Source of the DNA: Candidatus Daviesbacteria bacterium
GTDB taxonomy: Bacteria; Patescibacteriota; Microgenomatia; Daviesbacterales; UBA10151
Assembly: GCA_016186955.1 (NCBI GenBank)
Contig: JACPKP010000011.1
Location: 12,477-76,476, forward strand
DNA length: 64,000 bases
Direction: 5' to 3'
Part shown: piece after piece, positions 10,504 through 33,199 of the stretch
Layout of the letters: every line of letters begins with the position of its first letter
Numbering within the stretch: the first letter of the stretch is position 1
The notes under the pieces: generated by a model
What the model was told of the DNA's origin: nothing
Databases searched by the model: none
What the model saw: only the letters and a program-made list of their open reading frames with translations
Made by a program: the position numbers and the translations under genes

Positions 10504-10827
10504 TCATCTAAACCCGGCTAAATATAATATCAAGCCTACAATTATAGCAATTACCAGCATTGAAGACAGTCCTCCAAAAGCCAATATTCCTAAAACTGAT
10601 AGTACCCATAAAATGAACAATACACCTGCTATTTCTTTAAAAGGACTGGGTAAGACACCAATTACCGATGAAATAACAAGCAGGATTAGAATATTCCATA
10701 GAGTAATTGGTTGACCATTTATGTTAAATAAAATCAAATCAGGGATAGGAAAGGCGCCAACGCTTAAATACCCTACAAACCAAAGAATGATCAAAATGAC
10801 GAGTAAAGCTTCAAGCATTTGAATCAA
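10504..10827 (-). CDS. Hypothetical polytopic membrane protein
   Basis: Three to four hydrophobic helices. Overlaps the next gene on the same strand. Confidence 0.35.
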   Translation of the reverse strand: MIQMLEALLVILIILWFVGYLSVGAFPIPDLILFNINGQPITLWNILILLVISSVIGVLPSPFKEIAGVLFILWVLSVLGILAFGGLSSMLVIAIIVGLILYLAGFR

Positions 10828-11266
10828 CTTTTTTATTTACTTCGTCTGGGGTAACCGGTTTAATAAATTGCAAAAGATTAACTAACCCATATGCCAAAAG
10901 TAAATATACCATCATGGCCACAAAAGTTGACCACTCAATTACAGGACCTTCATCAACAGATGTTTTAATAATTCCCCTGAAAGGGAGTGCAAGGGGAGCG
11001 CTTAAAGAATAAATTAAATTAACAAACCCGCTGGGATACGCTCCAGACATCCTCAGAAATATTCTAAATGCCAGCAAAAATTCAATAACACCTAAGATAT
11101 ACCAAATAACCTGATAGGTACGAAAAATTATTTTTTTCTTTTCAAATACTTTTTGAGGATGCTCAGTTTGTATAGGGGGAGGAGTTATGGTTTTTGTTGT
11201 TTGTGTAACTTGAACCGGAGCAGACTTTGATACTGTTGTTACTTCTTGAGCTTCTAATTGTGCCAT
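10811..11266 (-). CDS. Hypothetical membrane protein (YGGT-like?)
   Basis: Two TM helices flank a FLRMSGAYP loop. Family assignment is weak. Confidence 0.3.
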   Translation of the reverse strand: MAQLEAQEVTTVSKSAPVQVTQTTKTITPPPIQTEHPQKVFEKKKIIFRTYQVIWYILGVIEFLLAFRIFLRMSGAYPSGFVNLIYSLSAPLALPFRGIIKTSVDEGPVIEWSTFVAMMVYLLLAYGLVNLLQFIKPVTPDEVNKKVDSNA

Positions 11267-11576: not shown

Positions 11577-12040
11577 AATCTAGGACTACTTTTTTCTCCC
11601 CTTTTATATATTGACGAATTAATAAACCGATTAAAGTTTGATAGGCTATACCATTTCTCTTGGCTTTAGCTTTAACCTTAATCAAATCCTCAGTATTAAC
11701 CCTGAGTGTAATACTTTTTGTTTGTTGTAACTACCTAAAGTTTCTAGCCGCTTCCTGAAACATTTGTTTAGTAACTTCTAGATTAGGGCTATTTTCAAAT
11801 TCGCCCTTTTCTAAAGCATTTTCTAAATCTTTCTCGTATTTATCAAGTATTACTTTCATTTTTGGCGCCTCCTTTCAGATATTTATCAGCCAACACCCTA
11901 CTTGGGTAGACTGTTTTTAAAAAAACTACTTTTCTTTTTTTATCTATTACGTAAGGCGTTGCATACACATATTCTTTTATCTTTATTACTAGTATTTTCT
12001 TCTCTTCAATATAAGTGCCACTTGGCTCCACTGTGTTGAT

Positions 12041-12910
12041 TCATTTAACCCCTATCTTCCATACCCCTTTTTCCCGAAAAGCAGGAATTGTTTGACGTTT
12101 TGCCGCATTTAAAATTACTGGAGCTGGTTTACCAATTTTTACCGCATACTCAGTTGCTTCGATAATTTTATTCCCTTTAAGATAGGCTACTCTTTTATGT
12201 AAAGCCTCCAGCAGCGCAAGCGATATTAACTTGTCCATATTTTTGGTCATTTTATCATCCCTATATTCCTTAAAAGAGTTATAATAGGCTTGCTTTTCTT
12301 TATCACGGATAATTACTCCAGGAAACCCCAATCTATATAGTTGATAATTTATAATAACTCTGCCAATTCTGCCATTGCCATCATTAAAAGGGTGAATTGT
12401 TTCAAATTGCAAGTGAAATTTAGAAATTTTATCTATAAAGTAATCTATATTATCGCTTGAGTATTCAATTAAAGCCTCTTCCAGTAAACGTTCTATATGT
12501 TCTGGAGCAGTAGCAATAAAAGTCCCTATGCGCACATATTCTGTTTTTTTGCGAAATCTCCCGGCAATACTTTCATCAATATTTCCTATTAACATCTGGT
12601 GAAGGAGTAATACAATCTCTTTAGAAAGCTCTCCAGCTTTATCACGGATATATTCCATGACCCGAGCCAAATTCTTAGCTTCAAAAACTTCACGCAGGCT
12701 GACATTTTTAGATACCTCCATCTCTAAGAGTATCTTCTCTGTTTCTTTTAAAGTTAAAGTAGAATTTTCTATAGCATTTGAGTTATAAACACTCTCGGGA
12801 ATTTCAGCTTCATCAATAATTTTAAGCAGAGACTCTTTGCCTGTCTTAAGATGATCATATTCTTTTTTAAGGATTTCTATCCTTTTTTGAAGGGGAAGCG
12901 AGGTTGACAT
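12041..12910 (-). CDS. Fic/Doc family protein (AMPylase-type)
   Basis: Canonical Fic motif HPFNDGNGRIGR. Confidence 0.75.
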   Translation of the reverse strand: MSTSLPLQKRIEILKKEYDHLKTGKESLLKIIDEAEIPESVYNSNAIENSTLTLKETEKILLEMEVSKNVSLREVFEAKNLARVMEYIRDKAGELSKEIVLLLHQMLIGNIDESIAGRFRKKTEYVRIGTFIATAPEHIERLLEEALIEYSSDNIDYFIDKISKFHLQFETIHPFNDGNGRIGRVIINYQLYRLGFPGVIIRDKEKQAYYNSFKEYRDDKMTKNMDKLISLALLEALHKRVAYLKGNKIIEATEYAVKIGKPAPVILNAAKRQTIPAFREKGVWKIGVK

Positions 12911-13524: not shown

Positions 13525-13611
13525 AAACCCATACACCCTCCGGGTGTATTACCTGCCTGCCGGCCTGCCTGACGGCAGTCAGGGCAGGCAGGACTTGACA
13601 CCTGCTCTTTT
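13525..13611. repeat. Repeat copy B: GC-palindrome element abutting attL
   Basis: Same about 90-nt unit as 11430-11520 (acaccctccgggtgt hairpin, cctgcctgcc...ggcaggcagg palindrome, cttgacacctgctctttttt). Confidence 0.6.
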
Positions 13612-13858
13612 TTGGCTCCTCGGCCAAGATAATATACCCTCGCTTCGCTCAAGCGAACAGCTTCCCATTTCATGGGGCGCAGTTCAAATCAGTCTCGAGA
13701 AAAAAATGAAAAATACAGATATGAAACCTCTATTTTTCATTTTGCTCCCCTTATTGGACACATTAAGAACTTTTAATTACCCTCAACTAGGAAACTTTGC
13801 TTACGCTTAGTTATAAAAATGATAATATACTAAATATAGCATCTTTAAAAATTAAGTA

Positions 13859-14575
13859 ATGAACAGTCAACAAAAAACTTTATTGATTATTAGCTTCGTA
13901 TTAGCTTTTGTAATTCCCATTTATGGATTAAGCCAATCATTAGCAGCTGGGTCATATGGTCAAACAAGACTTCCAGGGTTTACAGTATTTGTACTTGAAG
14001 CTGCCCTATTAGCAGCTACGGTTTTTGTTTATAAAATCCTGAAGGAACATCCAAACCTAAAAAGAAGCCTAATTACAGCTTTGATTGTTTTTATTACTCC
14101 TTTTATAGTTGGTGGATTATGTTTTTGGGGTTATGTTTCTTGGGCTAGCCATCAATATACCCCTTCTAACTTTGTCGCCGATCCAGCACCTCTAAAACCT
14201 GGTAAGGATATCTATCAGGTGGCAGAAGATATACCTTATGGTTACATGACATTAAGAATTGAGGCTGTAAAACGGCTGAGCACCAACATGATTGAGGTGG
14301 ATTTATATGAATATAACTCAAAGGACAATCCAAATAAACTGCAAATGTTTAATTCTCAATATTATTTAGAGGCACCAGACAAAACCAGAATAGAGCCAAA
14401 TTTTGATAATGGTGGTTTAAGAGGGGTTGATGTAGAACCAGATGAGGCAAAAAGAGGTAGAGTACTATTCCAAAATGATGCTTTGAAAGCGAATACACCT
14501 TTTATACTAAAGGTTCTACCATTTGAGGGGTCTCCTGCTCTTTCAGTGGATATTAGTAAGTATCTAGTTCAATAA
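13859..14575 (+). CDS. Membrane protein with C-terminal extracytoplasmic beta domain (DUF4352-like?)
   Basis: Three N-terminal TM helices, then a soluble domain. First gene inside the element. Confidence 0.4.
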   Translation: MNSQQKTLLIISFVLAFVIPIYGLSQSLAAGSYGQTRLPGFTVFVLEAALLAATVFVYKILKEHPNLKRSLITALIVFITPFIVGGLCFWGYVSWASHQYTPSNFVADPAPLKPGKDIYQVAEDIPYGYMTLRIEAVKRLSTNMIEVDLYEYNSKDNPNKLQMFNSQYYLEAPDKTRIEPNFDNGGLRGVDVEPDEAKRGRVLFQNDALKANTPFILKVLPFEGSPALSVDISKYLVQ

Positions 14576-14584
14576 GAAGAACCT

Positions 14585-15391
14585 TTACTGCTTCTTTTTC
14601 CCTCCAACACCTTTAATCTCAGTCAGGGTTTTATCAGCATCTTCCATAACTTTTCTCATAGAGTCGGCTTCTTTGCTCTGAAGAAAGTTGTCTCTTGTAA
14701 GTATTCTTAACGGTGTCTCTTTAGATACCACAAACGAACGTCCAGGCTCAGGAAAAAGTTTAGTACCCACCTTTATGTAGACTATATAACCTGCACCTAT
14801 ATAAAAACGGTAGGCATTCAAACCTGCGAACATATCAGTATCATACTCAGGGTGAGGATCAGCCATAAATGACTGTCCAATATCATCAGGAAACCTCGCA
14901 ATGATAAAAGAGAAGTTATTATCACCCCCTGAGTCATTATTCAATATATTTTGTCTAGCTCTTTCTAATTCTTCCTGGCTAAGATTTATTTTCCCAAATT
15001 GAGGTAACTGGCTTGCTCCTGCCCTCCATAACACTGAGATAACAAAAAGTTTTAATTTTTCATAATCAAATTGAGCTATTTCCCACCCTTTTAAATCACC
15101 ATTAACTATTATCTGCCTGTGGTGGTCTTCGTTTTGAAGAAGTAACCTAGGGGAATAATTATCATAAGGAGCAAATCTATTTTCGCACTCCGCACAAACC
15201 AGATCGGAATCGTACCACCCTATTCTCACCTTGCCTATTGGAAATTGATCCTTTGTATTAGTAATCAATTTCATCGATTGGGTTTTGGTCATTTTTGCTT
15301 TGCGCCTTGAGTACTCAAAATAAGCTCTTGGAAGAACATGAGCATTAGCTAATTTCACTACCTTCTCTTTGCAGAACTTACAGGTTTTCAT
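14585..15391 (-). CDS. Hypothetical protein with N-terminal HNH-like Cys/His motif
   Basis: N-terminal CKFCKEK...AHVLP resembles an HNH/zinc-ribbon nuclease signature. Remainder unrecognised. Confidence 0.35.
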   Translation of the reverse strand: MKTCKFCKEKVVKLANAHVLPRAYFEYSRRKAKMTKTQSMKLITNTKDQFPIGKVRIGWYDSDLVCAECENRFAPYDNYSPRLLLQNEDHHRQIIVNGDLKGWEIAQFDYEKLKLFVISVLWRAGASQLPQFGKINLSQEELERARQNILNNDSGGDNNFSFIIARFPDDIGQSFMADPHPEYDTDMFAGLNAYRFYIGAGYIVYIKVGTKLFPEPGRSFVVSKETPLRILTRDNFLQSKEADSMRKVMEDADKTLTEIKGVGGKKKQ

Positions 15392-15460
15392 AACCCCAAA
15401 ATTTTACCATTAAGGCTGGTATAATAACTAAAGTGACTGCCCTAAAAGAAGTAATGACTT

Positions 15461-16459
15461 ATGATAAAACGAGATGCAAATGGCAAATGGACGGCTTCTA
15501 ATGTCCCCAAGGATGTTAACCCTGTGTATGCAAGGGCTTTAGTAGATTTTTTTAATTCTCTTGACCCTCTCTTCACTAAAGCACAAGAGAAATCTGATTT
15601 TGAGTTTATTTTTGCGTTACTCAATGTTCAAGGAATGCAAGATGCTGGATGGGATGCTTTTGAAACTACCAAAGATATTTTTGAGACTTTTAATAAACTG
15701 AAGTCAAAAATTAAATACAATGATGAACAGCTACACCTTTTTTTAGTTTTATACGGCTTAATACTAGAAGCATCCTATCCATATGACCTTCTCTATAACT
15801 TGCTAAGAATAATTTCAGGCGAAAGATATTCAGTTATTTGCTTCCCAGACATAAAAATGGGTAGTAGTGGCAAGACCAGACCAATGTTTGCATCAGAAAA
15901 AATTAACAAAATAAAAGAACTGGCAAAAAAATTAGGTCTGGAATTAAATATACAACCTCTTGTGAACATTTTTGATAAAGAATTGCGAAATGCTATCTTC
16001 CATTCAGATTATTGCCTTTACGATAACGAATTACGACTACCAAAGTCTTCAACTATCTATAAAGTGGATAATGTAATGGCAATACTAAATAAAACAGTTG
16101 CTTATTACGAGGTGATTGTCAGGCTGGTAAAAATGTATAAGGCATCATATGAGAGACCTGAACTAATTGACCCTCCCCCTAGTTTTAATGCTGACCCAGA
16201 AGAAAAAATGGTAGTAATGGTGCGTAAAGGCACAGGAGCCATTGGAATTAAGAGTAATTGGACACAGGAGGAAATTGCTCAGGGAAAGATATCGTTCAGT
16301 ATAAGCCGCTTATTGCCCTACGAACAAAGAATGCTTCAAAAAGACCCTACGCTAGTTGAGTTCCCAGAAAACAAAGTTGAGAAATGGAATAAATTTTTGC
16401 ATATGTTCCCTGTACCAATAAGAAAACATCTCTTACCTATAACAGAACGGTTCTTGTAG
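15461..16459 (+). CDS. HEPN-motif protein, Abi_2 (AbiD/AbiF)-like abortive-infection candidate
   Basis: Contains ELRNAIFHSDY, a match to the Rx4-6H/RNxxxH HEPN motif conserved in AbiD/AbiF-like proteins. Size about 330 aa. Confidence 0.4.
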   Translation: MIKRDANGKWTASNVPKDVNPVYARALVDFFNSLDPLFTKAQEKSDFEFIFALLNVQGMQDAGWDAFETTKDIFETFNKLKSKIKYNDEQLHLFLVLYGLILEASYPYDLLYNLLRIISGERYSVICFPDIKMGSSGKTRPMFASEKINKIKELAKKLGLELNIQPLVNIFDKELRNAIFHSDYCLYDNELRLPKSSTIYKVDNVMAILNKTVAYYEVIVRLVKMYKASYERPELIDPPPSFNADPEEKMVVMVRKGTGAIGIKSNWTQEEIAQGKISFSISRLLPYEQRMLQKDPTLVEFPENKVEKWNKFLHMFPVPIRKHLLPITERFL

Positions 16460-16477
16460 CCTGTTTTTAAAAATGTA

Positions 16478-17209
16478 ATGAATAAGATTAAATCATCAGA
16501 CACAAAAATAACAATTGGTCAGTTAAGCAAGCTCACGGCTGAAGAGCGAACCAAAGTATTAGAACCAATTGTGAAAGCTAACGCAGAACAATTTACCAAA
16601 ATTGCCAGCGCTATAGGTGAAGCCTCTAATTTTGCTAAGACTATTAGCTCTATTGCCAGCTCTTTTAGGCTTCCGATGATTGATATGTTAGAAAACATCA
16701 AGCTCCCAGAACTACCCCAAATTCCTGATGTATACAGTTCTATTGATACTAAGGGAATGAGCTTTGAAAGATATGATCCACCAGTAGTAATTAAAAAATC
16801 AAAGTGGGAAATAGAAAAAGAAGCACGAGAGGCTTATAGAACAGAACTTCAAATTCAAGTGCTGGAACAACAACTGAATCTTTATAAAGGAATGCTCGCA
16901 CCTCAATATGATATAAATACTGGCACTATTACCTTTCTAGGTAAACAGATACAAATACCTCTAAATACAAATTTGGAAATGATCTGTCGCATTGTTCTTA
17001 AAAACTTAACCAATATGAAACGTAAGTGGTCGTGGGAGGAAATTATTGAAGAAAACAGAGAAAGCACTGATAATTTCACCTCAAGACAAATATATACGGC
17101 AGTCAGGTCAATCAATGATAAAGTTGCCGTAGAAACACAAGCAAAAGACCTACTTATTTCAAAACCCTACTCAACCGTTCAGGTAAACCCCAAATACCTG
17201 GCTAAATAG
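16478..17209 (+). CDS. Hypothetical protein (element cargo)
   Basis: ORF only; partly coiled-coil. Confidence 0.35.
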   Translation: MNKIKSSDTKITIGQLSKLTAEERTKVLEPIVKANAEQFTKIASAIGEASNFAKTISSIASSFRLPMIDMLENIKLPELPQIPDVYSSIDTKGMSFERYDPPVVIKKSKWEIEKEAREAYRTELQIQVLEQQLNLYKGMLAPQYDINTGTITFLGKQIQIPLNTNLEMICRIVLKNLTNMKRKWSWEEIIEENRESTDNFTSRQIYTAVRSINDKVAVETQAKDLLISKPYSTVQVNPKYLAK

Positions 17210-17556
17210 TTAGCTACATTTAGCTACTATCCCCTTTGATAAGCTCTGTTCATTATGAAACAAAGTAATGAGCAGCTAAAAATGAGCTTGGAAAAACTCT
17301 ATGGTCGCACCTTGACCACACAGGAACTTTTTTCTATCAAATACAACCTCGTAGGCTTCTTTGAAACCTTAATTAAGTTAGATAAACAGATGCAGAAAGG
17401 AGCACTTTATGGGAGCTCGTGAAGAAATGCAAAAAGAATATGAGCAGAACCTAGACAATCTCTTTGTTGAGGATTTTAAAGACTTGCTGATGAGTCTTTA
17501 TAAAAAACACCTAAGTTTAAATATAAAAAGAGGTATAGCAGCAAAAAGGAGAAAAA

Positions 17557-17826
17557 ATGCTCAAAGTAAGTGAGGTTCAGATAAGAGTCATTAAGCCCAA
17601 GGATGGGCTCGTAGGCTTTGCTAGCTGTGTCTTAGATGGTGTCCTCTACCTAAGTTCTATTGGCATATTTAGCAGACTGGATGGGACTGGCTACAGAATA
17701 ACTTTCCCAACTAAAAAAGTTGGCGATACTGACCTACAAATCTTTCATCCAATTAGCAGAGAGCTCGGTCAAGAAATAGAACAGGCAATTATTGATAAAG
17801 CTAGAAAGGTTTTTGAGGCTATATGA
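17557..17826 (+). CDS. spoVG: SpoVG family protein
   Basis: MLKVSEVQIRVIKP...GFASCVLDGVLYLSSIGIF...FPTKK...IFHPISRELGQEIEQAI matches the SpoVG pattern V.IR.I/ASI.FD..F.I..I.V/P...DI.HPI..E.R..I. Confidence 0.6.
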   Translation: MLKVSEVQIRVIKPKDGLVGFASCVLDGVLYLSSIGIFSRLDGTGYRITFPTKKVGDTDLQIFHPISRELGQEIEQAIIDKARKVFEAI

Positions 17827-17873
17827 GCTGAAAATCACTGACAGCTTATGTCGCTGAAGTAATGAGGTAAGTA

Positions 17874-19025
17874 ATGATTGACACAGTAATCCTAACTATG
17901 CAACTAGATAAAACACTTGTTACCGACCCTGATAAGTTCACACCTTCGCTAAGATGGCTTAAAGAAAGCGATAGGGGTTTTGGTGCTCGTTTGTTTACAA
18001 AGTACACTCAAAATATAAATCAAAAGTATGGTTATTACCCTCGTTTGACGGTTACTCCTAGATGGAAAGGGTATCTTGAAATACCTCTGAAAATTGAGTT
18101 TTCAGTCCCTAAATTATTATATGGTAACAACTTGGATGAAGTTAGCGAGGATGACTTTGAAAGAGTAATAGAAGTATTACAAAGCAAGCTAAAAGAAATG
18201 GGTATTAGAGTATTTCCAGAGCAGCTTAGAAATGCTCTGGTTTCCGCTGTGCATTATTCAAAAAATATACCCTTGTCTCATTTTGTTACAGCCTCCTGGG
18301 TAATCAGTGTCCTGAGCAAATTAGATGTAACTAAAAGATTAGAGCTTAACCATAGACATTTTAAGAACCAGGGACACGCTCTCTATTTTGACTGTGGCTC
18401 CTACCAAATAGTTATCTACGACAAACTAAAAGATATAGGTAAAAGTAAGCGGCACGCTGTAGATAAAGAACCTACATCAGAACAGCTAGGATTATTTGAC
18501 TTTATTAAGAAAAATAAGATACCTGCAGAAATTCTTAGAATTGAGATTAGACTTGTTCAGAAAGGAAAACTTAATTCCCTCTTTACCCAATTTGGTTATC
18601 CAGCTAATCCTACTTTTAAACAGATTTTTAATAGTGAAATTGCTAGAAAAGTTCTACACTTTTACTGGGACTTTATTGCTAATGAGAAGAGTTTATTTCT
18701 ACTCAAAGCCACTGACCAGGACACTTTAAAACAAGTAATTGAATTCCAGAGATTGAATAAAAGAAAGTTAAGTACTATTGAAACTTTAGGTATAGCTCAA
18801 ATTATAGAGTATTCTAAGACAAATGGGCTTAGAACATTAAGAGAGTCCCTTAGTAGCTTTTATTCAGACAGAAACTGGTTTAGACAACAAAAGTATTTTG
18901 ATTTAATAGAAAAAATTACTGCAGATAAAAAACCGTATGACTTTGTTACAGATATTGAAAATACCCTTAATACATTGAAGCCATATAGAATTGAGAACGA
19001 CTTAATCAAAGGAGAAGAGTCGTGA
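17874..19025 (+). CDS. Putative replication initiation protein (Rep_trans-like)
   Basis: 383 aa, positioned between a small regulator and the integrase as in phage or ICE replication modules. Family call by architecture only. Confidence 0.3.
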   Translation: MIDTVILTMQLDKTLVTDPDKFTPSLRWLKESDRGFGARLFTKYTQNINQKYGYYPRLTVTPRWKGYLEIPLKIEFSVPKLLYGNNLDEVSEDDFERVIEVLQSKLKEMGIRVFPEQLRNALVSAVHYSKNIPLSHFVTASWVISVLSKLDVTKRLELNHRHFKNQGHALYFDCGSYQIVIYDKLKDIGKSKRHAVDKEPTSEQLGLFDFIKKNKIPAEILRIEIRLVQKGKLNSLFTQFGYPANPTFKQIFNSEIARKVLHFYWDFIANEKSLFLLKATDQDTLKQVIEFQRLNKRKLSTIETLGIAQIIEYSKTNGLRTLRESLSSFYSDRNWFRQQKYFDLIEKITADKKPYDFVTDIENTLNTLKPYRIENDLIKGEES

Positions 19026-19226
19026 TAAAGGGATTTTCAAGGCTTTTGCAAGCCTACCTATATTTTCTAAGGATGGGTTTCTTAATCCTCTTTCAATACC
19101 TGAGATATAGGTTCTATCTAACCCAGTCTCAAAACCTAACTTCTCTTGAGAAAGCCCAATGCTCTTTCTTAATTCAAGAATCCTGGCACCGAACTTTTTC
19201 CTTAGTGGACTTGATTTTGTTACCAT
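19002..19226 (-). CDS. XRE-family HTH transcriptional regulator
   Basis: ILELRKSIGLSQEKLGFETGLDRTYISGIERGLRNPSLENIGRLAKAL is a canonical HTH_3 segment. Confidence 0.65.
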   Translation of the reverse strand: MVTKSSPLRKKFGARILELRKSIGLSQEKLGFETGLDRTYISGIERGLRNPSLENIGRLAKALKIPLSRLFSFD

Positions 19227-19308
19227 CAGCTATCATAATCAGAGATAAGTGGACTATTGGTCTACGGACTATTAGTCACAATCTCTGTCAAAAGGAGGTG
19301 AAAAAGTA

Positions 19309-19992
19309 ATGAAAGAAACAGAAAAAAGTACTTCTAAAATAGGCATTGGTTCTATCTTGAGTTGGGGTTTAGGAGGATTATTAGTAGTTGGTGGTATTAT
19401 TGAGCTTTTTAGCAAGCCAGCGATGGGTATTTTTACTCTCCTTGCAGGTTTGATTATATTTCCACCAGCAGTTAAGTTTATTAAAAACAGAACTCACTTT
19501 GAGCTATCAAAAGCCTTAAAAGTAGTAGCATTTTTAGTCCTGCTCGGTATTGGTGGTGCTCTGGCTGGTACTTCAAGTACTTCCACAGCAAGCACACCTA
19601 GTGCTAGCAACCAACAAAACAAACCTAATAGTGCCTCAAGTAAACCTGAGCCAACAGCGACAAGCGTAAGCAAGCAACCAGATGTACCAACTGAATATAA
19701 ATCTGCTCTCAGCCAAGCTACTTCATATGCCAACACAATGCATATGTCCAAGCAAGGCGTCTATGACCAGCTAGTTTCAGAATATGGTGGTAAGTTTTCG
19801 CCAGCAGCCGCACAGTATGGAATAGACAATGTAAAAGCAGATTGGAACGCTAATGCCCTAGCTAAAGCAAAGAACTATCAAGATTCCATGCATATGTCAC
19901 CAGCTGCCATTCATGACCAGCTAACATCTGCTTATGGGGAAAAGTTCACACAATCAGAGGCAGATTATGCTATTCAGCATCTTAACGACTAA
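19309..19992 (+). CDS. Membrane protein with two Ltp-like (PF07553, phage superinfection-exclusion lipoprotein) repeats
   Basis: Two TM helices and a Ser/Thr/Pro linker, then two roughly 48-aa repeats: YKSALSQATSYANTMHMSKQGVYDQLVSEYGGKFSPAAAQYGIDNV and AKAKNYQDSMHMSPAAIHDQLTSAYGEKFTQSEADYAIQHL. Confidence 0.5.
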   Translation: MKETEKSTSKIGIGSILSWGLGGLLVVGGIIELFSKPAMGIFTLLAGLIIFPPAVKFIKNRTHFELSKALKVVAFLVLLGIGGALAGTSSTSTASTPSASNQQNKPNSASSKPEPTATSVSKQPDVPTEYKSALSQATSYANTMHMSKQGVYDQLVSEYGGKFSPAAAQYGIDNVKADWNANALAKAKNYQDSMHMSPAAIHDQLTSAYGEKFTQSEADYAIQHLND

Positions 19993-20094
19993 TAGTGCTT
20001 ATAAAGTGAGACTATACAAAAGTTGTTCTTTTTAATTCTGGGCAGGAGCAATCCTTCCCAGCCTAAAGAGAAGGTTATACCTAACTATAAAATT

Positions 20095-21609
20095 ATGAAG
20101 GCTCTTGGCATTGCTCGTGTATCAACACCAGAACAAAAAGAAGCAGGAAACTCATTACCTGCTCAGGTAGCTCGTATTGAAAAATACTGTCGTATCAAAA
20201 CCTTTGACCCAGTAGAAACATTCAGCTTTGATGAGACTGCCTATAAAGAGGATAGGGATAAGTTTGACAGCATTCTAGATAGGATTATTGAAGAGAAAGA
20301 TAAGATTGCAGTTTGTTTTGATAAAGTTGACCGCTTATCAAGAAATGTATTTGATAAACGAGTATCTTTATTGTACGAAAAGGCTCTAAGAGATGAGATA
20401 GAGCTTCATTTTGTATCTGATGGTCAAGTAATTAACAGTCAAATATCGGCAGTTGAAAAATTCCAGTTTGGTATCAGCTTAGGCCTTGCTAAATATTACT
20501 CAGATGCCATTAGTGACAATGTAAAAAGAGCAACCGAACAAAAACTACGCAGAGGCGAATGGCCTACTAAAGCACCTATCGGCTACTTAAATATAGACCT
20601 GGAAGATGAAAAGAAATGGATTGAAGTTGACACTCAACGAGCAGATTTGGTTATTAAGATATTTGAATGGTATGCAACCACTGCTTATTCCATGGAAATG
20701 CTTAGAAGGAAAGCTAAAGAAGAAGGGTTAACAAACAATACAGTTTCTGGCACCTATCTAACGAAAAGCCAAATAGAACTTATCCTTAAAAATCCTTTTT
20801 ACTATGGCGAAATGCGATATAGAGACAATATTTACCCTCATAGCTATAAACCACTTATATCAAAAGAGTTGTTTGATAAAGTGCAGCAAGTTAAACAAAA
20901 CTGGCACAAAAAGCCCTTTAAGTACGCTGCTAAGCCATTTATTTATAGAGGTCTACTCTCCTGCTCCAGTTGTGGTTGCAGGATTACTTTTGAAACAGCT
21001 AAAGGCAAATACAATTATGGACACTGTACTAACTATTATAAAAATTGTTCTAATGTAGTTTGGATTAGAGAAGAGGATATAACTGACCAATTTAAAGATT
21101 TATTAAAAGGGTTAACTATAGATAAAGAGGTATTAGAAGAACTGGTTAAAGAACTTAGGGATAACCACACAGCCAAGGTTGAGTATCACGAGCGTACCAT
21201 GTCTAACTTAAAAGCAGAATACGATAAATTGGAAAACCGCTTAACTAAAATGTATGAGGATAAACTAGATGGGAGTATTACAGGCGATAAGTATGACAGC
21301 TTACTCAGTAAGTATAAGGGTATTCAGGCAGACATTCTTTTACAGATGGAAAGACATAGTAAAGCAGATGAGAGTTATTACACTGAAGCGAATAAGTTGC
21401 TAGAGCTTGCCAGTCGTGCTTATGAGATTTTTGAAAGTTCTGAAGCCGATGGTAAAAGGGAACTTTTAAAGTACCTACTTCAGAACTCTGAAATGAAAGG
21501 CAGAAAGGTTATTCCCACGCTCCAAATGCCATTTGATGCTATCCTTCTTGCCAACAAAACAAAAGATTGGCTCCTCGGCCAAGATTCGAACTTGGAACCT
21601 TCTCGTTAA
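20095..21609 (+). CDS. Large serine recombinase (integrase)
   Basis: Start set at MKALGIARVSTPEQ (catalytic Ser) rather than 20023. Has a resolvase N-domain, recombinase domain and zinc ribbon CSSCGCRITF...HCTNYYKNC. The ORF's C-terminal about 40 nt run into the tRNA-Asn 3' end, so the true stop is uncertain. Confidence 0.75.
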   Translation: MKALGIARVSTPEQKEAGNSLPAQVARIEKYCRIKTFDPVETFSFDETAYKEDRDKFDSILDRIIEEKDKIAVCFDKVDRLSRNVFDKRVSLLYEKALRDEIELHFVSDGQVINSQISAVEKFQFGISLGLAKYYSDAISDNVKRATEQKLRRGEWPTKAPIGYLNIDLEDEKKWIEVDTQRADLVIKIFEWYATTAYSMEMLRRKAKEEGLTNNTVSGTYLTKSQIELILKNPFYYGEMRYRDNIYPHSYKPLISKELFDKVQQVKQNWHKKPFKYAAKPFIYRGLLSCSSCGCRITFETAKGKYNYGHCTNYYKNCSNVVWIREEDITDQFKDLLKGLTIDKEVLEELVKELRDNHTAKVEYHERTMSNLKAEYDKLENRLTKMYEDKLDGSITGDKYDSLLSKYKGIQADILLQMERHSKADESYYTEANKLLELASRAYEIFESSEADGKRELLKYLLQNSEMKGRKVIPTLQMPFDAILLANKTKDWLLGQDSNLEPSR

Positions 21610-21642
21610 CAGCGAGCCGCTCTACCATTGAGCTACCGAGGA
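21568..21642 (-). tRNA. tRNA-Asn (anticodon GTT)
   Basis: The reverse-complement folds as a cloverleaf: acceptor TCCTCGG/CCGAGGA, anticodon loop CTGTTAA, T-loop TTCGAAT, encoded CCA. Confidence 0.8.
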
Positions 21643-27728: not shown

Positions 27729-27800
27729 GCGCCCCCGGCGGGAATCGAACCCACATATCAGGATCCGGAATCCTGTGGTCTATCCGTTAGCCTACGGGGG
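27729..27800 (-). tRNA. tRNA-Arg (anticodon CCG)
   Basis: Reverse-complement GCCCCCGTAGGCTAACGGATAGACCACAGGATTCCGGATCCTGATATGTGGGTTCGATTCCCGCCGGGGGCG; anticodon loop TTCCGGA; no encoded CCA. Confidence 0.75.
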
Positions 27801-27950
27801 CATCCAATGCTCTAAGATAACAAAGTCTGTTATTAAAACAACGATTTTAATAACAAGCGACGTTATCGCAAACTTTGTTTATCCATTAAGCTACAGGTGC
27901 AAAACGAAATCCTGCGGTCTAAAATATCGTAGTGTTTTTGTATTTTACCA

Positions 27951-28235
27951 TCAAGGATAGACTTTTATATGCCCGCCGATTGCTAAAAAGCTTACCGTAT
28001 TTTTACCTGCTATCTTGTAAACAATTCTTACATCATCATTGATACTAAAAGCCCACAAACCTTTCATTTTTTTTCTAAGAGGATGGTTGTGTAATCTTGT
28101 ATCGTCTGGGTTCCGCTCAAACAACCTGACTTTCTCATTAATAACTGCTTCAAGACCCGGAGATTCTTTTAGTAGGGTCTTTAAAAATGGGACGTAGTCT
28201 CTGGCATATTTAATCTTAACCATGCTTCTGCTCAC
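27951..28235 (-). CDS. RelE/YoeB-like toxin
   Basis: 94 aa; overlaps the RHH partner. RelE-like ...DDVRIVYKIAGKNTVSFLAIGGHIKVY C-terminus. Confidence 0.45.
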   Translation of the reverse strand: MSRSMVKIKYARDYVPFLKTLLKESPGLEAVINEKVRLFERNPDDTRLHNHPLRKKMKGLWAFSINDDVRIVYKIAGKNTVSFLAIGGHIKVYP

Positions 28236-28506
28236 GATGGTTCTTTAAAGGATAGTTCATCACAAACTGAGAGAAAGGCGTTTTGCCATCCCACTCGATA
28301 TATTCCTGGTTGGAATCATTGGCTATTTGTAGCACTTCTTCTTCAAACTCTGAGGTGAATCCATTTTCAGTCAATTCGGGGTACAAAAACCGCCGCAAAG
28401 CATCACGAAAGAGCTCACTGATTGATGTATAACCCTTACCGGCTACCGCTTTCTTAGCGTCGGCATGGAGAGATTTTGGGAGTGAGATGTTAATCGTAGT
28501 TGTCAT
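28216..28506 (-). CDS. RHH/ParD-like antitoxin
   Basis: INISLPKSLHADAKKAVAGKGYTSISELFRDALRRF is RHH-like. Confidence 0.45.
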   Translation of the reverse strand: MTTTINISLPKSLHADAKKAVAGKGYTSISELFRDALRRFLYPELTENGFTSEFEEEVLQIANDSNQEYIEWDGKTPFSQFVMNYPLKNHREQKHG

Positions 28507-28558
28507 AGTATCATTGTATGGTTTTCATACAAACTTTGTCAACTATTACTATCTCCTG

Positions 28559-28645
28559 CGGTGGGGGTGGGATTTGAACCCACGAAGGACTTTCGCCCTT
28601 TCCGGTTTTCGAAACCAGTGCACTCGGCCACTATGCGACCCCACC
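28559..28645 (-). tRNA. tRNA-Ser (anticodon CGA)
   Basis: Reverse-complement GGTGGGGTCGCATAGTGGCCGAGT...; anticodon loop TTCGAAA; long variable arm; T-loop TTCAAAT. Confidence 0.75.
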
Positions 28646-28654
28646 ATGTGCACC

Positions 28655-28765
28655 CCCGAAAGGATAATATACCCACCGACTAAAGTCGGTGAGCGAACCT
28701 TCGAGGATAGCGCGCCCGGCGGGACAACATACCACTCGCCTCCGGCGAGTAGCGAACCTGCCAGG
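28655..28765. repeat. Duplicated tRNA-Arg 3'-end fragment plus two hairpin-agcgaacct units
   Basis: gcacccccgaaaggat at 28654-28669 repeats the tRNA-Arg 3' end at 28766-28781. Between the copies: ccaccgactaaagtcggtgagcgaaccttcgagg and ccactcgcctccggcgagtagcgaacctgccagg (hairpin followed by agcgaacct, twice). Confidence 0.55.
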
Positions 28766-28839
28766 CACCCCCGAAAGGATTCGAACCTTCGACCTCAACG
28801 TCCGCAACGTTGCGCTCTAATCCACTGAGCTACGGGGGT
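28766..28839 (-). tRNA. tRNA-Arg (anticodon GCG as read)
   Basis: Reverse-complement ACCCCCGTAGCTCAGTGGATTAGAGCGCAACGTTGCGGACGTTGAGGTCGAAGGTTCGAATCCTTTCGGGGGTG; anticodon loop TTGCGGA. GCG is an unusual Arg anticodon, so the isoacceptor call is tentative. Confidence 0.6.
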
Positions 28840-28899
28840 ACTGTGTGTATTTTACCTTATTGACTTATAAAAATCATAAGTTTAATATCTTAAATTGTA

Positions 28900-29220
28900 A
28901 TGTCTCCTGAACAGAGGGAAATAGTAGGTAAACCATTTGAGGAGGTTTGCGGAATTAAAGATATTTTTGTTGAAAAATATTTGCGACCATTCTTTTATGA
29001 TTATGAATACCCCTTGAATGGTGCAGGAGTTGGCCTGTCTAACTACAATAGGGGCCGTGCACGCTTTGTGATAAGTGTTAATACCCTCCAAAAACCTACC
29101 TCAGAATTTTTAAAGTCTCTAAGTTTACCAAGGAAATCATTCAAAGGAGTGCCTGTAAAATACCAACTTTTTGCTGGGTTTAGGGCTGCCGCGGACAGCA
29201 GAAACCAACTGTTTGAATGA
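28900..29220 (+). CDS. Hypothetical protein
   Basis: ORF only. Confidence 0.2.
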   Translation: MSPEQREIVGKPFEEVCGIKDIFVEKYLRPFFYDYEYPLNGAGVGLSNYNRGRARFVISVNTLQKPTSEFLKSLSLPRKSFKGVPVKYQLFAGFRAAADSRNQLFE

Positions 29221-29353
29221 GCAAAGAAAATTTAGATCCGAACAGGGCATATTTTGAGTAGAGTCACAGCTTTGGATAACGGACCTGTGTATAGCTATGG
29301 TGGACCGGAAGAAGAGTTCTATCCAAAGGGCAAAAAACGGTTTTGTTAAGATT

Positions 29354-29995
29354 TCATCTGTGGGGGTTCTCCAGCGGAAAATGTTTCTGCAGGCTGTCTG
29401 ACCATTTTTCCATCATAGTTTTTGGCGCGATCTCATGAAAAGGCAGGTATCTTGCGCAGGTATTCCTGACCTCCTCTTCACTGACATCTGAACCCAAAAC
29501 AAGGATCAACACACCGGGAAAATTTATCCTTGTCAAAACATGTAGGAGTTTATGCCCGTCTTTTTCGGAAAACCAGAAAGAGTCAAGTTCCTGCCAGTGG
29601 TAAAAATGGTCTCCTATGGTAACACCCTGTGTAGATATTTTATAGCCAACATCTTCAGGGGAGATAAAATTTAAAACATAAACCAGAAAACCCAAGGCTA
29701 ATATCGCCCCTACCAGAATCTTTTCCCCTGCTAAAAAGACTATCATTGAGGTTAAAACGATTAATACTGCAACTGTAGTATAAAAAGAGCGGTCTTTTTT
29801 CCTGAATGGCCGGGACGGGGCTTTCCAAGATAGCAGAGTCCTGACAGGATCATAATCAAAAAAAGGGTCGCTTTGCTGAACATCTTCGGCAGGGAGCTCC
29901 TCCGCAGGTTTTATGGGATTTGGGAGTTCCTTTTCAGGGTCAATCGAACTGGGCAACTCCGGTGTAAGCAGGTCTTTTTCGAAATATTCGGGCAT
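29354..29995 (-). CDS. Hypothetical membrane protein (two TM helices)
   Basis: MPEYFEKDLLTPELP... acidic N-terminus, two TM helices. The heptamer repeat begins 8 nt upstream of the start codon. Confidence 0.4.
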   Translation of the reverse strand: MPEYFEKDLLTPELPSSIDPEKELPNPIKPAEELPAEDVQQSDPFFDYDPVRTLLSWKAPSRPFRKKDRSFYTTVAVLIVLTSMIVFLAGEKILVGAILALGFLVYVLNFISPEDVGYKISTQGVTIGDHFYHWQELDSFWFSEKDGHKLLHVLTRINFPGVLILVLGSDVSEEEVRNTCARYLPFHEIAPKTMMEKWSDSLQKHFPLENPHR

Positions 29996-30003
29996 TAGGG
30001 ATA

Positions 30004-30031
30004 GTGTAAAGTGTAAAGTGTAAAGTGTAAA
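30004..30031. repeat. Heptanucleotide tandem repeat (GTGTAAA)x4
   Basis: gtgtaaagtgtaaagtgtaaagtgtaaa, 8 nt upstream of the ATG of 29354..29995 (minus strand). Confidence 0.8.
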
Positions 30032-30040
30032 GTAGTAACC

Positions 30041-30595: not shown

Positions 30596-30678
30596 GTTAC
30601 GGTAGTACATTATACCAAGTTTTGCAAACAATATCACATTGTGATATTGACATATGATATAATAGTAAATATAATTCA

Positions 30679-31400: not shown

Positions 31401-31555
31401 CCTTCTAAATTCTTCCAAAATCTCCCTCGGCGGTACCTGGTTGCCTGCCATCCATAGCTTTAGCAAGGGATGGACTATGTTGGAACCTTTTATCAAATCT
31501 CAACACAGCAAAAGGCCTTTGTTAACACATTAATTGTACGATAAAATTAGTTTTA

Positions 31556-32065: not shown

Positions 32066-32223
32066 AAAAGTTTTGGTTGGAACCTGTTAAAAACTGCCTT
32101 TTTAGGCACAAATTGATGATATTGATAAAAAATGCCCTAAAAAATGATTGGGTTGGTTGGAACTTACCCTTAAGGGAAATATAGCCTGGTAAAACTGACT
32201 AGCTAAGGTTATTGTTAATCTTT

Positions 32224-32460: not shown

Positions 32461-32464
32461 ATCA

Positions 32465-32915: not shown

Positions 32916-33199
<284 letters not shown>

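What the first reader, a model, noticed from the sequence alone, without database searches (positions are those of the whole stretch)
13612..21642. 7.9-kb integrative element at tRNA-Asn with perfect 19-bp att duplication and defense-like cargo
The 19-mer ttggctcctcggccaagat occurs at 13612-13630 and again as the 3' end of tRNA-Asn (21567-21585). The tRNA-proximal gene is a large serine recombinase with catalytic Ser, recombinase domain and zinc ribbon. Between the repeats lie an XRE repressor divergent from a Rep-like gene, SpoVG, an Ltp-like superinfection-exclusion protein, an HNH-like protein and a HEPN (RNxxxH) AbiD/F-like protein. There are no capsid or tail genes, so this looks like a small satellite or integrative-plasmid-type element carrying anti-phage cargo rather than a prophage. 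That is unusual for a genome of this apparent style.
Basis: partly seen in the sequence, partly recalled or inferred. Interest (0 to 1): 0.7.

Follow-up and report, generated by a model that had tools for sequence, protein, structure and literature searches.

The report
Serine-recombinase replicon inserted at tRNA-Asn

Summary

The boundaries need revising. Six relatives show that this family's left junction is host DNA, then the core GCTCC, then a conserved P' arm. The element proper is therefore about 13744-21574 (7.83 kb) with a 5-bp common core. The 19-mer at 13612 is best read as an orphan tRNA 3' fragment from an older event.

The element belongs to a large family (444 Rep homologs) found in candidate phyla radiation bacteria, Dependentiae and other phyla. 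The family backbone is SpoVG, Rep and LSR beside an antisense tRNA. The LSR reading frame always crosses the att core, and its Trp codon is the antisense of CCA. Relatives carry restriction-modification systems as cargo.

In the window only Ltp is a homology-supported defence gene. The HNH call is unsupported and the HEPN call rests on a motif alone. No empty site was found. One relative contig shows an attP-type junction.

The parts
13612..13630 (.). Orphan 19-nt copy of the tRNA-Asn 3' end (T-loop edge to CCA, plus 1 nt). It is best read as a relic displaced tRNA fragment or attB-like pseudo-site, outside the LSR element.
   Evidence: Exact repeat, 2 copies, 0 expected. It aligns as a tRNA (B') fragment, not as a P' arm. 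Sixteen of its 19 nt are tRNA body and 2 more are CCA, so any displaced native 3' end would match.
13631..13743 (-). 113-nt spacer between the orphan fragment and the real attL. It holds an AT-rich hairpin plus a T-run (about 13700-13743) that would lie directly downstream of the pre-integration tRNA 3' end. It is host DNA or the remnant of an older element.
   Evidence: Fold z-score -6.0 for 13530-13760 on the minus strand. No homology in sibling L048, whose host gene lies about 30 nt from its core. No match elsewhere.
13744..13783 (+). attL: common core GCTCC (13744-13748) followed by the family-conserved P' arm CCTTATTGGACACATTAAGAACTTTTAATTAC.
   Evidence: The motif GCTCCCCYTAKTRRAY is unique in the window, with 0.05 expected. 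The same block forms the left junction in L048, L013, L003, L053 and L055. Alignment A4 has GCTCC invariant.
13859..14575 (+). Variable cargo: a 238-aa protein of unknown function with an N-terminal hydrophobic segment (read by eye).
   Evidence: No Pfam, PHROG, PADLOC or NCBIfam hit. Absent from the sibling and other relatives.
14585..15391 (-). It is half of a mobile two-gene cassette with the next gene.
   Evidence: Only phrog_19960, of unknown function. It has 10 homologs. The pair recurs at 86-87% identity in a different LSR element, L051.
15461..16459 (+). Variable cargo: a 332-aa protein with an invariant R176-N177-x3-H181 motif (HEPN-like). It is the other half of the cassette.
   Evidence: Alignment A3 invariants. 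AF2 pLDDT 90.4. No Foldseek PDB match and no family hit.
16478..17209 (+). Backbone gene of 243 aa, function unknown. Its C-terminal domain is conserved upstream of SpoVG in relatives.
   Evidence: 63% identical in L048 and 66% in L004, with weaker matches in L015, L005 and L019.
17255..17573 (+). Two small backbone ORFs of 55 and 54 aa. They are candidates for accessory or directionality factors, which is inference only.
   Evidence: The 55-aa ORF is 90% identical in L048 and has a counterpart in L003. Small ORFs sit at this position in L049, L050, L053, L055 and L056.
17557..17826 (+). SpoVG-family protein of 89 aa, the conserved partner immediately upstream of Rep.
   Evidence: Pfam SpoVG at 5.2e-9, above the gathering cut-off. 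It lies directly upstream of Rep in at least 11 loci and in L048-L056.
17874..19025 (+). Rolling-circle replication initiator of the Rep_trans / G2P (Phage_CRI) superfamily, 383 aa, with invariant Y182-D183-K184 and E224.
19002..19226 (-). XRE-type HTH regulator of 74 aa. It is convergent with Rep, overlapping it by 24 nt, and divergent from the Ltp-LSR genes.
   Evidence: HTH_3 at 2.7e-16. The same arrangement is seen in L048, L055 and L056.
19309..19992 (+). Ltp-domain protein of 227 aa: hydrophobic N-terminal segments, a Ser/Thr/Pro-rich linker and two Ltp repeats. It is a candidate superinfection-exclusion protein. It contains no cysteine, so it cannot be a lipoprotein.
   Evidence: PF07553 at 2e-47 over 2 stretches. 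phrog_4980 'superinfection exclusion' at 6e-58. DNA matches to sie/ltp genes of Firmicute phages. Sequence.
20095..21609 (+). Large serine recombinase of 504 aa. Its last 13 codons (WLLGQDSNLEPSR) are the antisense of the tRNA-Asn 3' end, and its stop codon lies inside the tRNA.
   Evidence: Three Pfam domains. phrog_95 integrase at 3.4e-69. An exact-match gene call exists in Logan. Frame analysis across 30 loci.
21530..21574 (+). attR: the P arm, which is the 3' coding end of the LSR (PFDAILLANKTKDW), ending in the common core GCTCC (21570-21574). The TGG at 21568-21570 supplies the tRNA's encoded CCA.
   Evidence: A 67-nt copy of 21513-21579, 97% identical, survives as a remnant in a related Daviesbacteria genome.
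21568..21642 (-). tRNA-Asn(GTT), intact. It is the integration target.
   Evidence: ARAGORN. Rfam 68.3 bits.

Best explanation
The window holds an integrated element of about 7.83 kb (about 13744-21574). It is capsid-less, site-specific and probably self-replicating, in a Candidatus Daviesbacteria chromosome.

Mechanism, with shown and inferred steps marked:

1. Integration. A large serine recombinase (LSR) inserted a circular element into the 3' end of tRNA-Asn by crossover within the 5-bp core GCTCC, the antisense of the acceptor-stem 3' strand. Shown: the anatomy of both junctions and their conservation in relatives. Inferred: the chemistry.

2. attP lies inside the recombinase gene. The P arm is the last roughly 15 codons of the LSR gene. 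The conserved Trp codon TGG is the antisense of CCA, so the element gives the tRNA gene an encoded CCA and a new 3' trailer. After integration the LSR ORF ends in the antisense tRNA (tail WLLGQDSNLEPSR). In the excised circle it would read into the P' arm instead (predicted tail WLPLLDTLRTFNYPQLGNFAYA).

3. Replication. After excision the circle is replicated by its Rep_trans-fold rolling-circle initiator (candidate catalytic Tyr182), with the always-adjacent SpoVG-like nucleic-acid-binding protein as accessory. This step is inferred.

4. Regulation. The XRE regulator faces the Ltp-LSR genes and probably controls them. This step is inferred.

5. Cargo. There are two variable slots, one next to attL and one between XRE and the LSR. 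They hold an Ltp-type candidate superinfection-exclusion protein, a membrane protein, and a mobile two-gene cassette with a HEPN-like RNxxxH protein. Relatives carry restriction-modification systems in the second slot.

6. The 19-mer. The perfect 19-mer at 13612-13630 is an orphan native tRNA-Asn 3' fragment left by an earlier insertion at the same hotspot. It is not this element's att repeat.

The transfer route is unknown. Natural transformation, helper-dependent packaging or mobilisation are all possible.
For: Junctions:
- The P' motif is unique in the window at 13744.
- The same core plus P' block forms the left junction in L048, L013, L003, L053 and L055, with host genes 2-30 nt away in L013 and L048. 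Alignment A4 has GCTCC invariant.
- Sibling L048 (LSR 94%, Rep 86% amino-acid identity) is homologous from 13743 and 16745-21608 only.
- The mismatches flanking the core fit a crossover inside GCTCC. The attL base after the core is C, as in the family attP. The attR base is T, as in the host tRNA.
- 5 of 7 tRNA genes in the window lack an encoded CCA.

LSR and tRNA overlap:
- In 25 of 30 loci the ORF stops in an antisense tRNA in one fixed frame.

Free or attP form in a relative:
- Contig L056 starts with 6 nt of P arm, the core and P', ends at P plus core, and has a 12-nt terminal overlap.
- L053 shows a tandem arrangement with a P-core-P' junction.

Rep:
-.

Family backbone and spread:
-.

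Defence cargo in relatives:
-.

This element:
- Ltp, XRE and SpoVG.
- An independent assembly contig is 100% identical to 13774-21625.
- Host identity comes from protein names given by NCBI and from RpoD, which is 90% identical to that of a Daviesbacteria MAG.
Against: - No empty site and no attP junction for this particular element were found. Metagenome and genome scans were exhausted.
- The Logan contig of this element ends at 13774 and 21625, at neither model's junction.
- A 113-nt 'older element' is very small, and its origin is unproven.
- A perfect 19/19 repeat is what a single integration with a long identity block would give. One relative, L002, has a long tRNA-like P' arm with 19 of 22 identities.
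- Rep has only weak direct sequence support (Rep_trans E 0.04) and no Foldseek hit.
- No recombination directionality factor, origin or transfer function was identified.
- Activity in this host is untested, and several relatives have pseudogenised LSRs.
Confidence: 0.72

Rival explanations
1. A single 7,955-bp unit is bounded by the perfect 19-bp repeat. attP carries 19 bp of identity to tRNA-Asn, and 13631-13743 belongs to the element. On this view the internal GCTCCCC plus P' block at 13744 is a fossil of an earlier attachment site carried along.
For: The repeat is perfect and unique, and one copy is the tRNA 3' end. This is the classical signature of tRNA-integrating elements. L002 shows that a P' arm in this family can mimic the tRNA over about 22 nt.
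Against: The 94%-identical LSR of L048 uses the P' block directly at its junction with host DNA. The same is true in L013, L003, L053 and L055. The sequence right of the left 19-mer (AATATACCCTCG...) has no counterpart in any relative. Serine recombinases need no long identity. The 19 nt are explained by 16 nt of tRNA, the CCA and 1 chance base.
Confidence: 0.15
2. It is a phage satellite or a defective or cryptic (pro)phage, for example inovirus-like, which depends on a helper virus for packaging rather than behaving as a plasmid-like replicon.
For: Rep relatives hit the filamentous-phage G2P family Phage_CRI. Ltp genes are typical of temperate phages and satellites. Inoviruses with serine recombinases, and with candidate phyla radiation hosts, are reported (PMC6813254). 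The element is small and has no conjugation genes.
Against: No morphogenesis ATPase (pI/Zot), coat or capsid family was hit. Only one partial Rep hit was found in 2.9 million IMG/VR contigs, with no other viral-contig match. The small ORFs show no obvious transmembrane coat-protein character, read by eye.
Confidence: 0.12
3. It is an immobile, domesticated remnant. The genes persist as a chromosomal island (defence or surface proteins), but the element no longer excises.
For: No excised form or empty site was found for it. Many relatives have fragmented LSR genes: L015, L026, L027, L028, L036, L041 and L042. A 67-nt remnant exists in a related genome.
Against: All backbone ORFs here are full length, with the catalytic motifs intact. 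The sibling at 87% nucleotide identity has swapped cargo and sits at a tRNA-Asn with a different acceptor stem, which indicates recent mobility of the lineage. An attP-type junction is seen in a relative.
Confidence: 0.2

Closest known systems
Integrative and mobilizable elements (IMEs) of Firmicutes with serine integrases and Rep_trans/MOBT proteins (PMC5357655, PMC5704250, PMC7563843)
   Same: They are small (under 15 kb) integrated elements with an outward-facing integrase at one end, a Rep_trans-superfamily initiator/relaxase, no virion or mating-pore genes, and accessory cargo.
   Different: In streptococcal IMEs the serine integrases insert within protein-coding genes and disrupt them, and tRNA 3' ends are used by tyrosine integrases (PMC5357655). 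Here a serine recombinase targets tRNA 3' ends and keeps the tRNA intact. Rep is too divergent to hit Rep_trans directly (E 0.04). A SpoVG partner is always present. The hosts are candidate phyla radiation and Dependentiae bacteria, and no conjugative helper is evident.
pSAM2-type actinomycete integrative elements (AICEs)
   Same: They integrate at a tRNA 3' end, then excise and amplify by rolling-circle replication from an element-encoded Rep. This comparison is from my own knowledge; PMC3218068 appears but was not read.
   Different: AICEs use tyrosine integrases with long identity blocks, encode a different Rep family, and have an FtsK-like Tra protein for transfer. None of these is present here.
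SSV1-type archaeal integrases and integration-dependent immunity of mycobacteriophages
   Same: attP lies inside a coding sequence of the element, so integration changes the product encoded. In the mycobacteriophage case the C-terminus, including an ssrA-like tag, is removed by integration.
   Different: Those systems use tyrosine integrases. SSV splits the int gene in two, and the mycobacteriophages place attP in the repressor gene. Here only the last roughly 12-25 codons of a serine recombinase are exchanged, and no functional consequence has been shown.
Characterised large serine integrases (phiC31, Bxb1, A118, TP901-1, CcrAB, XisF)
   Same: They share the three-domain architecture, the short common core and the absence of any need for long homology. 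NCBIfam gives weak similarity to XisF and CcrB.
   Different: NCBIfam scores are far below the equivalog cut-offs (92 against 375 bits). The target is the antisense acceptor/T-arm of tRNA genes (Asn, Glu, Gln, Ser, Asp, Trp), and the stop codon is provided by the target.
Ltp of Streptococcus thermophilus phage TP-J34 (superinfection exclusion)
   Same: It has two Ltp repeat domains (PF07553) and lies next to the integrase and a repressor-type gene.
   Different: The protein has no cysteine, so no lipobox is possible, and it appears to be anchored by hydrophobic helices instead. Its function is untested, and the host is a candidate phyla radiation bacterium.

Membership tests
Large serine recombinase / serine integrase | N-terminal resolvase catalytic domain with a nucleophilic Ser | tested here: met
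   PF00239 at 1.2e-17 over residues 28-180 of the 528-aa ORF. The ARVSTPEQ motif is visible.
Large serine recombinase / serine integrase | Recombinase domain plus zinc-ribbon domain C-terminal to the catalytic domain | tested here: met
   PF07508 at 1.1e-13 and PF13408 at 2.2e-7. phrog_95 integrase at 3.4e-69.
Large serine recombinase / serine integrase | Short common core between attL and attR with unrelated flanking arms, and a conserved attP arm | tested here: met
   The 5-bp core GCTCC is invariant in 11 aligned junctions, and P' is conserved among relatives.
Large serine recombinase / serine integrase | Catalyses attP x attB recombination, and excision needs a directionality factor | not testable with these tools
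No directionality factor was identified.
Rep_trans / G2P rolling-circle initiators | Rep_trans (TBP-like pseudo-twofold) fold | tested here: met
Rep_trans / G2P rolling-circle initiators | Sequence membership in PF02486 or PF05144 above the Pfam threshold | tested here: not met
   The window protein hits Rep_trans at E 0.04, 14 bits against a cut-off of 29.6. Among 71 relatives, 14 hit Phage_CRI (best 5e-8) and 7 hit Rep_trans. It is a distant sister group rather than a member by the curated threshold.
Rep_trans / G2P rolling-circle initiators | Conserved catalytic tyrosine and acidic/metal residues | tested here: inconclusive
   Y182-D183-K184 and E224 are invariant in 71 sequences. Their equivalence to the catalytic Tyr of RepD/RepDE was not checked residue by residue.
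   The repeat exists. Comparative junctions place the left end 113-132 nt further in. No empty site was found to decide directly.
Ltp superinfection-exclusion lipoprotein | Ltp repeat domains | tested here: met
   PF07553 at 2e-47 over two stretches. phrog_4980 at 6e-58.
Ltp superinfection-exclusion lipoprotein | Lipoprotein signal peptide with a lipobox cysteine | tested here: not met
   The 227-aa sequence contains no cysteine.
HEPN / AbiD-AbiF (Abi_2) abortive-infection proteins | Rx4-6H motif in a HEPN helical domain, and a match to Abi_2 or defence models | tested here: inconclusive
HNH endonuclease (268-aa ORF) | Match to an HNH family or motif | tested here: not met
   There are no HNH hits, only PHROGs of unknown function.
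Inovirus (filamentous prophage) | pI/Zot-like morphogenesis ATPase and small hydrophobic coat proteins | tested here: not met
   No such family appeared in the Pfam, PHROG or NCBIfam scans of all the element ORFs listed under parts. The marker definition is from PMC6813254.

The most novel reading that the evidence does not exclude
Integration switches the recombinase between two isoforms. Because attP lies inside the LSR reading frame, the excised circle would encode an LSR with a conserved extra tail of about 21-28 aa:
- window: WLPLLDTLRTFNYPQLGNFAYA
- L053: ...QFLQAYA
- L055: ...SNFLSA
- L056: ...AFIDA

The integrated copy ends instead in a short tail encoded by the antisense tRNA. In the window the excised-form tail ends in AYA. 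These are the same last residues as the host tmRNA tag that I infer (ANLFGRSSDRVAYAYA).

The free-form recombinase might therefore be marked for proteolysis, or otherwise altered in activity. That would make integrase level or directionality depend on integration state. It would be a serine-recombinase counterpart of the integration-dependent immunity of mycobacteriophages.
Probability: 0.12. Interest if true: 0.75.

Novelty: new variant of a known kind. Interest (0 to 1): 0.55.

Why it matters
- Mobile elements of candidate phyla radiation bacteria and Dependentiae are poorly known. This is a compact, recurrent family with hundreds of members and a clear modular plan: a SpoVG-Rep replication core, a serine recombinase, and cargo slots that carry restriction-modification and exclusion genes. 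It is a plausible vehicle for defence-gene traffic in these small genomes.
- It adds a clade of large serine recombinases that target tRNA 3' ends without destroying the tRNA. tRNA 3' ends are normally the territory of tyrosine integrases. Their attP half-site is their own coding 3' end, and they even write the CCA.
- The att sites are short and predictable (conserved tRNA sequence), which could be useful for engineering.
- There is a methodological lesson. A perfect tRNA-derived direct repeat next to an integrase is not necessarily that integrase's att pair. tRNA hotspots accumulate relic fragments.

Tried and rejected
Searches that found nothing:
- Empty-site pattern (13604-13630 joined to 21586-21590) in JGI metagenomes: 0 hits.
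- Reader-model attP junction in IMG/VR: 0 hits.
- P-arm 41-mer in metagenomes: found only the already known Daviesbacteria remnant, L047 = L046. In IMG/VR: 0 hits.
- The 113-nt spacer and the P' arm pattern in IMG/VR: 0 hits each.
- Exact look-ups of host flank proteins (VIT, RpoD, Fic): not on record. No second strain of this host could be examined.

Annotation attempts that gave little:
- DNA similarity to phage and plasmid collections matches only the Ltp segment.
- PADLOC gave nothing for any cargo gene in the window, or for the three left-end cargo genes of sibling L048.
- A profile of the Rep family against PDB sequences found nothing.

Analyses that were uninformative:
- A search for long direct repeats of the tRNA end within 10 kb in 28 related loci found almost none. 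This was the first hint that the family does not make long repeats.
- Circularity by terminal overlap: none for L001 or L049.
- A by-eye comparison of the P and P' arms for dyad symmetry was uninformative.
- The promoter and terminator scan was at background level.
- The repeat scan inside the element showed no obvious iterons or origin.

Considered and rejected:
- Inovirus or prophage: no morphogenesis genes.
- A tyrosine-integrase island: no such gene is present.

Full report
**1. The observation.**
The 19-mer TTGGCTCCTCGGCCAAGAT occurs exactly twice in 64 kb, at 13612-13630 and 21567-21585. This holds even with two mismatches allowed, and none is expected by chance.

ARAGORN and Rfam place an intact tRNA-Asn(GTT) at 21568-21642 on the minus strand. 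The right copy of the 19-mer is the tRNA's last 18 nt, including an encoded CCA, plus one base.

The neighbouring ORF (20095-21609; an upstream TTG at 20023 is also possible) has Resolvase, Recombinase and Zn_ribbon_recom domains. It also matches PHROG 'integrase' at 3.4e-69.

The other confirmed genes are:
- an HTH_3/XRE gene at 19002-19226 on the minus strand;
- SpoVG at 17557-17826;
- a protein with two Ltp repeats at 19309-19992, which matches PHROG 'superinfection exclusion' at 6e-58.

No capsid, tail, terminase or conjugation family was hit.

- The 268-aa 'HNH-like' ORF has no HNH hit in any library.
- The 332-aa 'HEPN' ORF has only its RNxxxH motif. The motif is invariant in 45 homologs, but there is no family hit and no Foldseek PDB match for a confident model.

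XRE is convergent with Rep and overlaps it by 24 nt. It is divergent from the Ltp-LSR genes, not from Rep.

**2. Host and copies elsewhere.**
NCBI names the Rep and the 268-aa proteins as hypothetical proteins HYW46_06545 and HYW46_06520 of a Candidatus Daviesbacteria bacterium. The window's RpoD is 90% identical to that of Daviesbacteria RIFCSPHIGHO2_12_FULL_37_16.

A Logan contig (SRR12113424_11902, 7,852 bp) is 100% identical to window 13774-21625. Exact look-ups of the host flank proteins found nothing.

**3. The element is one of a large family.**
A scan of species-representative genomes with the LSR found 45 loci at 30-60% identity. They come from:
- Microgenomates and other Patescibacteria;
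- Babeliales/Dependentiae;
- Omnitrophota, Dehalococcoidia and Marinimicrobia;
- MAGs labelled 'uncultured Gammaproteobacteria'. Three of these (L003, L033, L037) have RpoD about 66-70% identical to the window's, so they are probably mislabelled.

In most loci the 3' end of the LSR gene overlaps the 3' end of an antisense tRNA: Asn, Glu, Gln, Ser, Asp or Trp. A frame analysis shows that in 25 of 30 loci the ORF stops inside the antisense tRNA in one fixed frame. A conserved PFDxIL-x7-W is present, and its Trp codon TGG is the antisense of CCA.

More than 20 loci also carry the 383-aa Rep a few kb upstream, and at least 11 have SpoVG immediately before it. The Rep family has 444 members at E <= 1e-3 in the 5.8-billion-protein collection.

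**4. What Rep is.**
The window protein barely touches Pfam Rep_trans (E 0.04). A family profile finds nothing in PDB sequences, and Foldseek finds nothing.

Other lines of evidence are clearer:
- 14 of 71 family members hit Phage_CRI, the filamentous-phage G2P family (best 5e-8), and 7 hit Rep_trans.
- Y182-D183-K184 and E224 are invariant.

I conclude that it is a distant Rep_trans/G2P-type nicking initiator. The assignment of Tyr182 as the catalytic residue is inference.

**5. Where the element really ends.**
If the 19-mer were the att repeat, relatives should show similar long repeats. They do not.

The closest sibling is L048, a Logan contig with Rep 86% and LSR 94% amino-acid identity and the same RpoD and YggT neighbourhood. 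It is homologous to the window over 16745-21608 and again over a 41-nt block at window 13743-13783.

In L048 that block is the left junction. A host RibD_C gene starts about 30 nt to its left, and the junction reads aagtGCTCCCCCTATTAGACACATTAAGAAC. The same structure (flank, core GCTCC(C)C, then a P' arm yTAkTrGAC...) forms the left junction in:
- L013, with a host gene start 2 nt away;
- L003;
- L053;
- L055.

In L002 the P' arm is a 22-nt imperfect copy of the tRNA.

The window contains this motif once, at 13744-13759, with 0.05 expected by chance. An alignment of five attL junctions, five attR junctions and the left 19-mer has GCTCC as the only invariant block. The left 19-mer aligns as a tRNA fragment, not as a P' arm.

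The bases flanking the core fit a crossover inside GCTCC:
- To the right of the core, attL has C, as the family attP does. attR has T, as this host's tRNA acceptor stem does.
- To the left of the core, attL has the host's T, and attR has the element's G of TGG.

The element proper is therefore about 13744-21574 (7.83 kb).

The pre-integration tRNA gene would have ended ...GGAGC followed by AAAATGAAAAATA...TATTTTTCATTTTTTT. That is a hairpin plus a T-run. It would have had no encoded CCA, like 5 of the 7 tRNA genes in the window.

**6. What the 19-mer is.**
Sixteen of its bases are tRNA body and two complete the CCA. Any displaced native tRNA-Asn 3' end would therefore match perfectly.

It stops at the T-loop edge. 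The same is true of the tRNA fragment attached to the 67-nt LSR remnant in the related Daviesbacteria genome, L046. Fragments cut there are what I would expect from elements that cross over in the T-loop; that expectation comes from my own knowledge.

Accretion at this site is directly seen in relatives:
- L053 carries two LSR elements in tandem at tRNA-Asn.
- L055 has an additional relic P'-like site.

I therefore read 13612-13630 as an orphan fragment from an older event, and 13631-13743 as what is left of that event or as host DNA. This is the weakest link in the argument.

**7. Evidence for an excised form.**
For this element there is none.

For a relative there is some. L056 (Rep 49% identical, Logan SRR9016296_892718) is a 10,357-bp contig. 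It starts TAATTG-GCTCCC-GCTAATAGG..., which is six bases of P arm, the core and P'. It ends ...GGTAATTGGCTCCC, giving a 12-nt terminal overlap, and it contains no tRNA. This is what an assembly broken at the att core would give if a circle or tandem attP form were present.

In L056, and in the L053 tandem, the LSR ORF continues across the core into P'.

**8. Cargo.**
The sibling shares the backbone: the 243-aa gene, the 55-aa ORF, SpoVG, Rep, XRE, Ltp and the LSR. It has three unrelated genes where the window has the 238-, 268- and 332-aa genes. The attL-proximal region is therefore a variable slot.

The 268/332 pair recurs at 86-87% identity inside a different LSR element at another tRNA-Asn, L051. 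It is a mobile two-gene cassette of unknown function.

Between Rep and the LSR, relatives carry:
- a type III restriction-modification system in L002;
- C5 and D12 methylases plus an HNH type II restriction enzyme in L013 (PADLOC 1.5e-104);
- a C5 methylase plus a BsaWI-like enzyme in L003;
- a DUF4352 surface protein in L055.

The window has Ltp in that slot. 'Defence-type cargo' is thus well supported for the family. In the window it is supported by homology for Ltp only, and that protein cannot be a lipoprotein because it has no cysteine.

**9. Comparison with known systems.**
The closest described kind is the Firmicute integrative and mobilizable element with a serine integrase and a Rep_trans/MOBT protein. 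In the streptococcal survey, serine integrases insert within genes and disrupt them, while tRNA 3' ends are used by tyrosine integrases (PMC5357655).

Inoviruses share the G2P-type Rep, and some have serine recombinases and candidate phyla radiation hosts (PMC6813254). This element lacks their morphogenesis marker, and the family is almost absent from IMG/VR.

Full-text searches for candidate phyla radiation or Patescibacteria elements with serine recombinases, or with a SpoVG-Rep pairing, found no description. The library covers open-access papers only.

I class it as a new variant of a known kind.

**10. A speculative extra.**
In the excised form the window's LSR would end ...WLPLLDTLRTFNYPQLGNFAYA. 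Related predicted tails end ...QAYA in L053...FLSA in L055 and ...FIDA in L056.

The window's tmRNA (34077-34444) has, from position 91, the frame ANLFGRSSDRVAYAYA followed by a stop. ARAGORN did not recognise a tag, so this tag is my inference.

Only one of 990 open segments of at least 30 codons in the window ends in AYA, and it is this tail. An integration-dependent change in recombinase stability or activity is therefore conceivable. The match was noticed after the fact, and it is absent in L048, L013 and L002. I give it about 12%.

**Verdict.**
The more interesting result is the family-level design.

Noticed in passing
L048 13769-14076 (-) and L004 11510-11758 (-): The tRNA-Asn genes targeted by the sibling elements are interrupted by group I introns (Rfam RF00028, 68.6 and 105.5 bits). 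ARAGORN therefore misses these tRNAs. Several other 'tRNA-less' loci still have LSR tails that read like antisense tRNA (WLPRLDSN...).
   Followed up: partly
L046 10009-10085 (= L047), Daviesbacteria RIFCSPHIGHO2_12_FULL_37_16: A 67-nt stretch is 97% identical to window 21513-21579 (LSR 3' end plus core). It continues into a fragment of about 20 nt resembling a tRNA-Asn 3' end, in an intergenic region with no tRNA nearby. It is a fossil attR of a near-identical element in a related genome.
   Followed up: partly
window 12041-12910 (-), with a 62-aa ORF at 11843-12031 (-): A Fic/DOC protein lies in the left flank. It hits PADLOC candidate defence families PDC-S04 (4e-35) and SoFic (2.4e-27). 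The whole stretch between YggT (10811-11266) and tRNA-Asn differs from the syntenic region of L048, so it is a variable region.
   Followed up: no
window 13548-13600: A GC-rich hairpin (GCCTGCCTGAC-GGCA-GTCAGGGCAGGC) sits in a genome region of about 37% GC. It is unique in the window and lies just left of the orphan 19-mer, inside an 85-aa ORF with no family hit.
   Followed up: partly
window 34077-34444 (+): A tmRNA (Rfam 102.6 bits) that ARAGORN does not report at default settings. The likely tag reading frame starts at position 91 and gives ANLFGRSSDRVAYAYA.
   Followed up: partly
window tRNA genes at 27729-33097: Five of the seven tRNA genes in the window lack an encoded CCA. The two that have one are tRNA-Ser(GGA) and tRNA-Asn, where the CCA comes from the element's Trp codon under the revised model.
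   Followed up: yes
L053 4163-5824 and 11162-12661: Two LSR elements lie in tandem at one tRNA-Asn. The upstream LSR (553 aa) reads across a hybrid junction made of a P arm, the core and a P' arm.
   Followed up: partly
L056 1-10357: The contig has a 12-nt terminal overlap exactly at the att core and carries no tRNA. It is a likely circular or tandem attP form of a family member. Its cargo includes a Peptidase_M48 protein and an 823-aa protein.
   Followed up: partly
L003, L033, L037 (records titled 'uncultured Gammaproteobacteria', binchicken MAGs): These MAGs carry RpoD about 66-70% identical to the Daviesbacteria window, and L003 and L037 also have the tRNA-Asn-RpoD neighbourhood seen in Microgenomates loci. 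The taxonomic label is probably wrong.
   Followed up: no
L051 9126-10999 and 14319-15882: The 268/332-aa cassette of the window sits in a different LSR element that lacks Rep and SpoVG and has HTH_36 and HTH_17 genes. That element is also at a tRNA-Asn, with the LSR ORF overlapping the tRNA.
   Followed up: partly
L055 5309-7025: A family member carries a pyridine-nucleotide disulfide oxidoreductase plus an ArsR-type regulator as left-end cargo. This may be metal resistance, so the cargo slot is not limited to defence genes.
   Followed up: no
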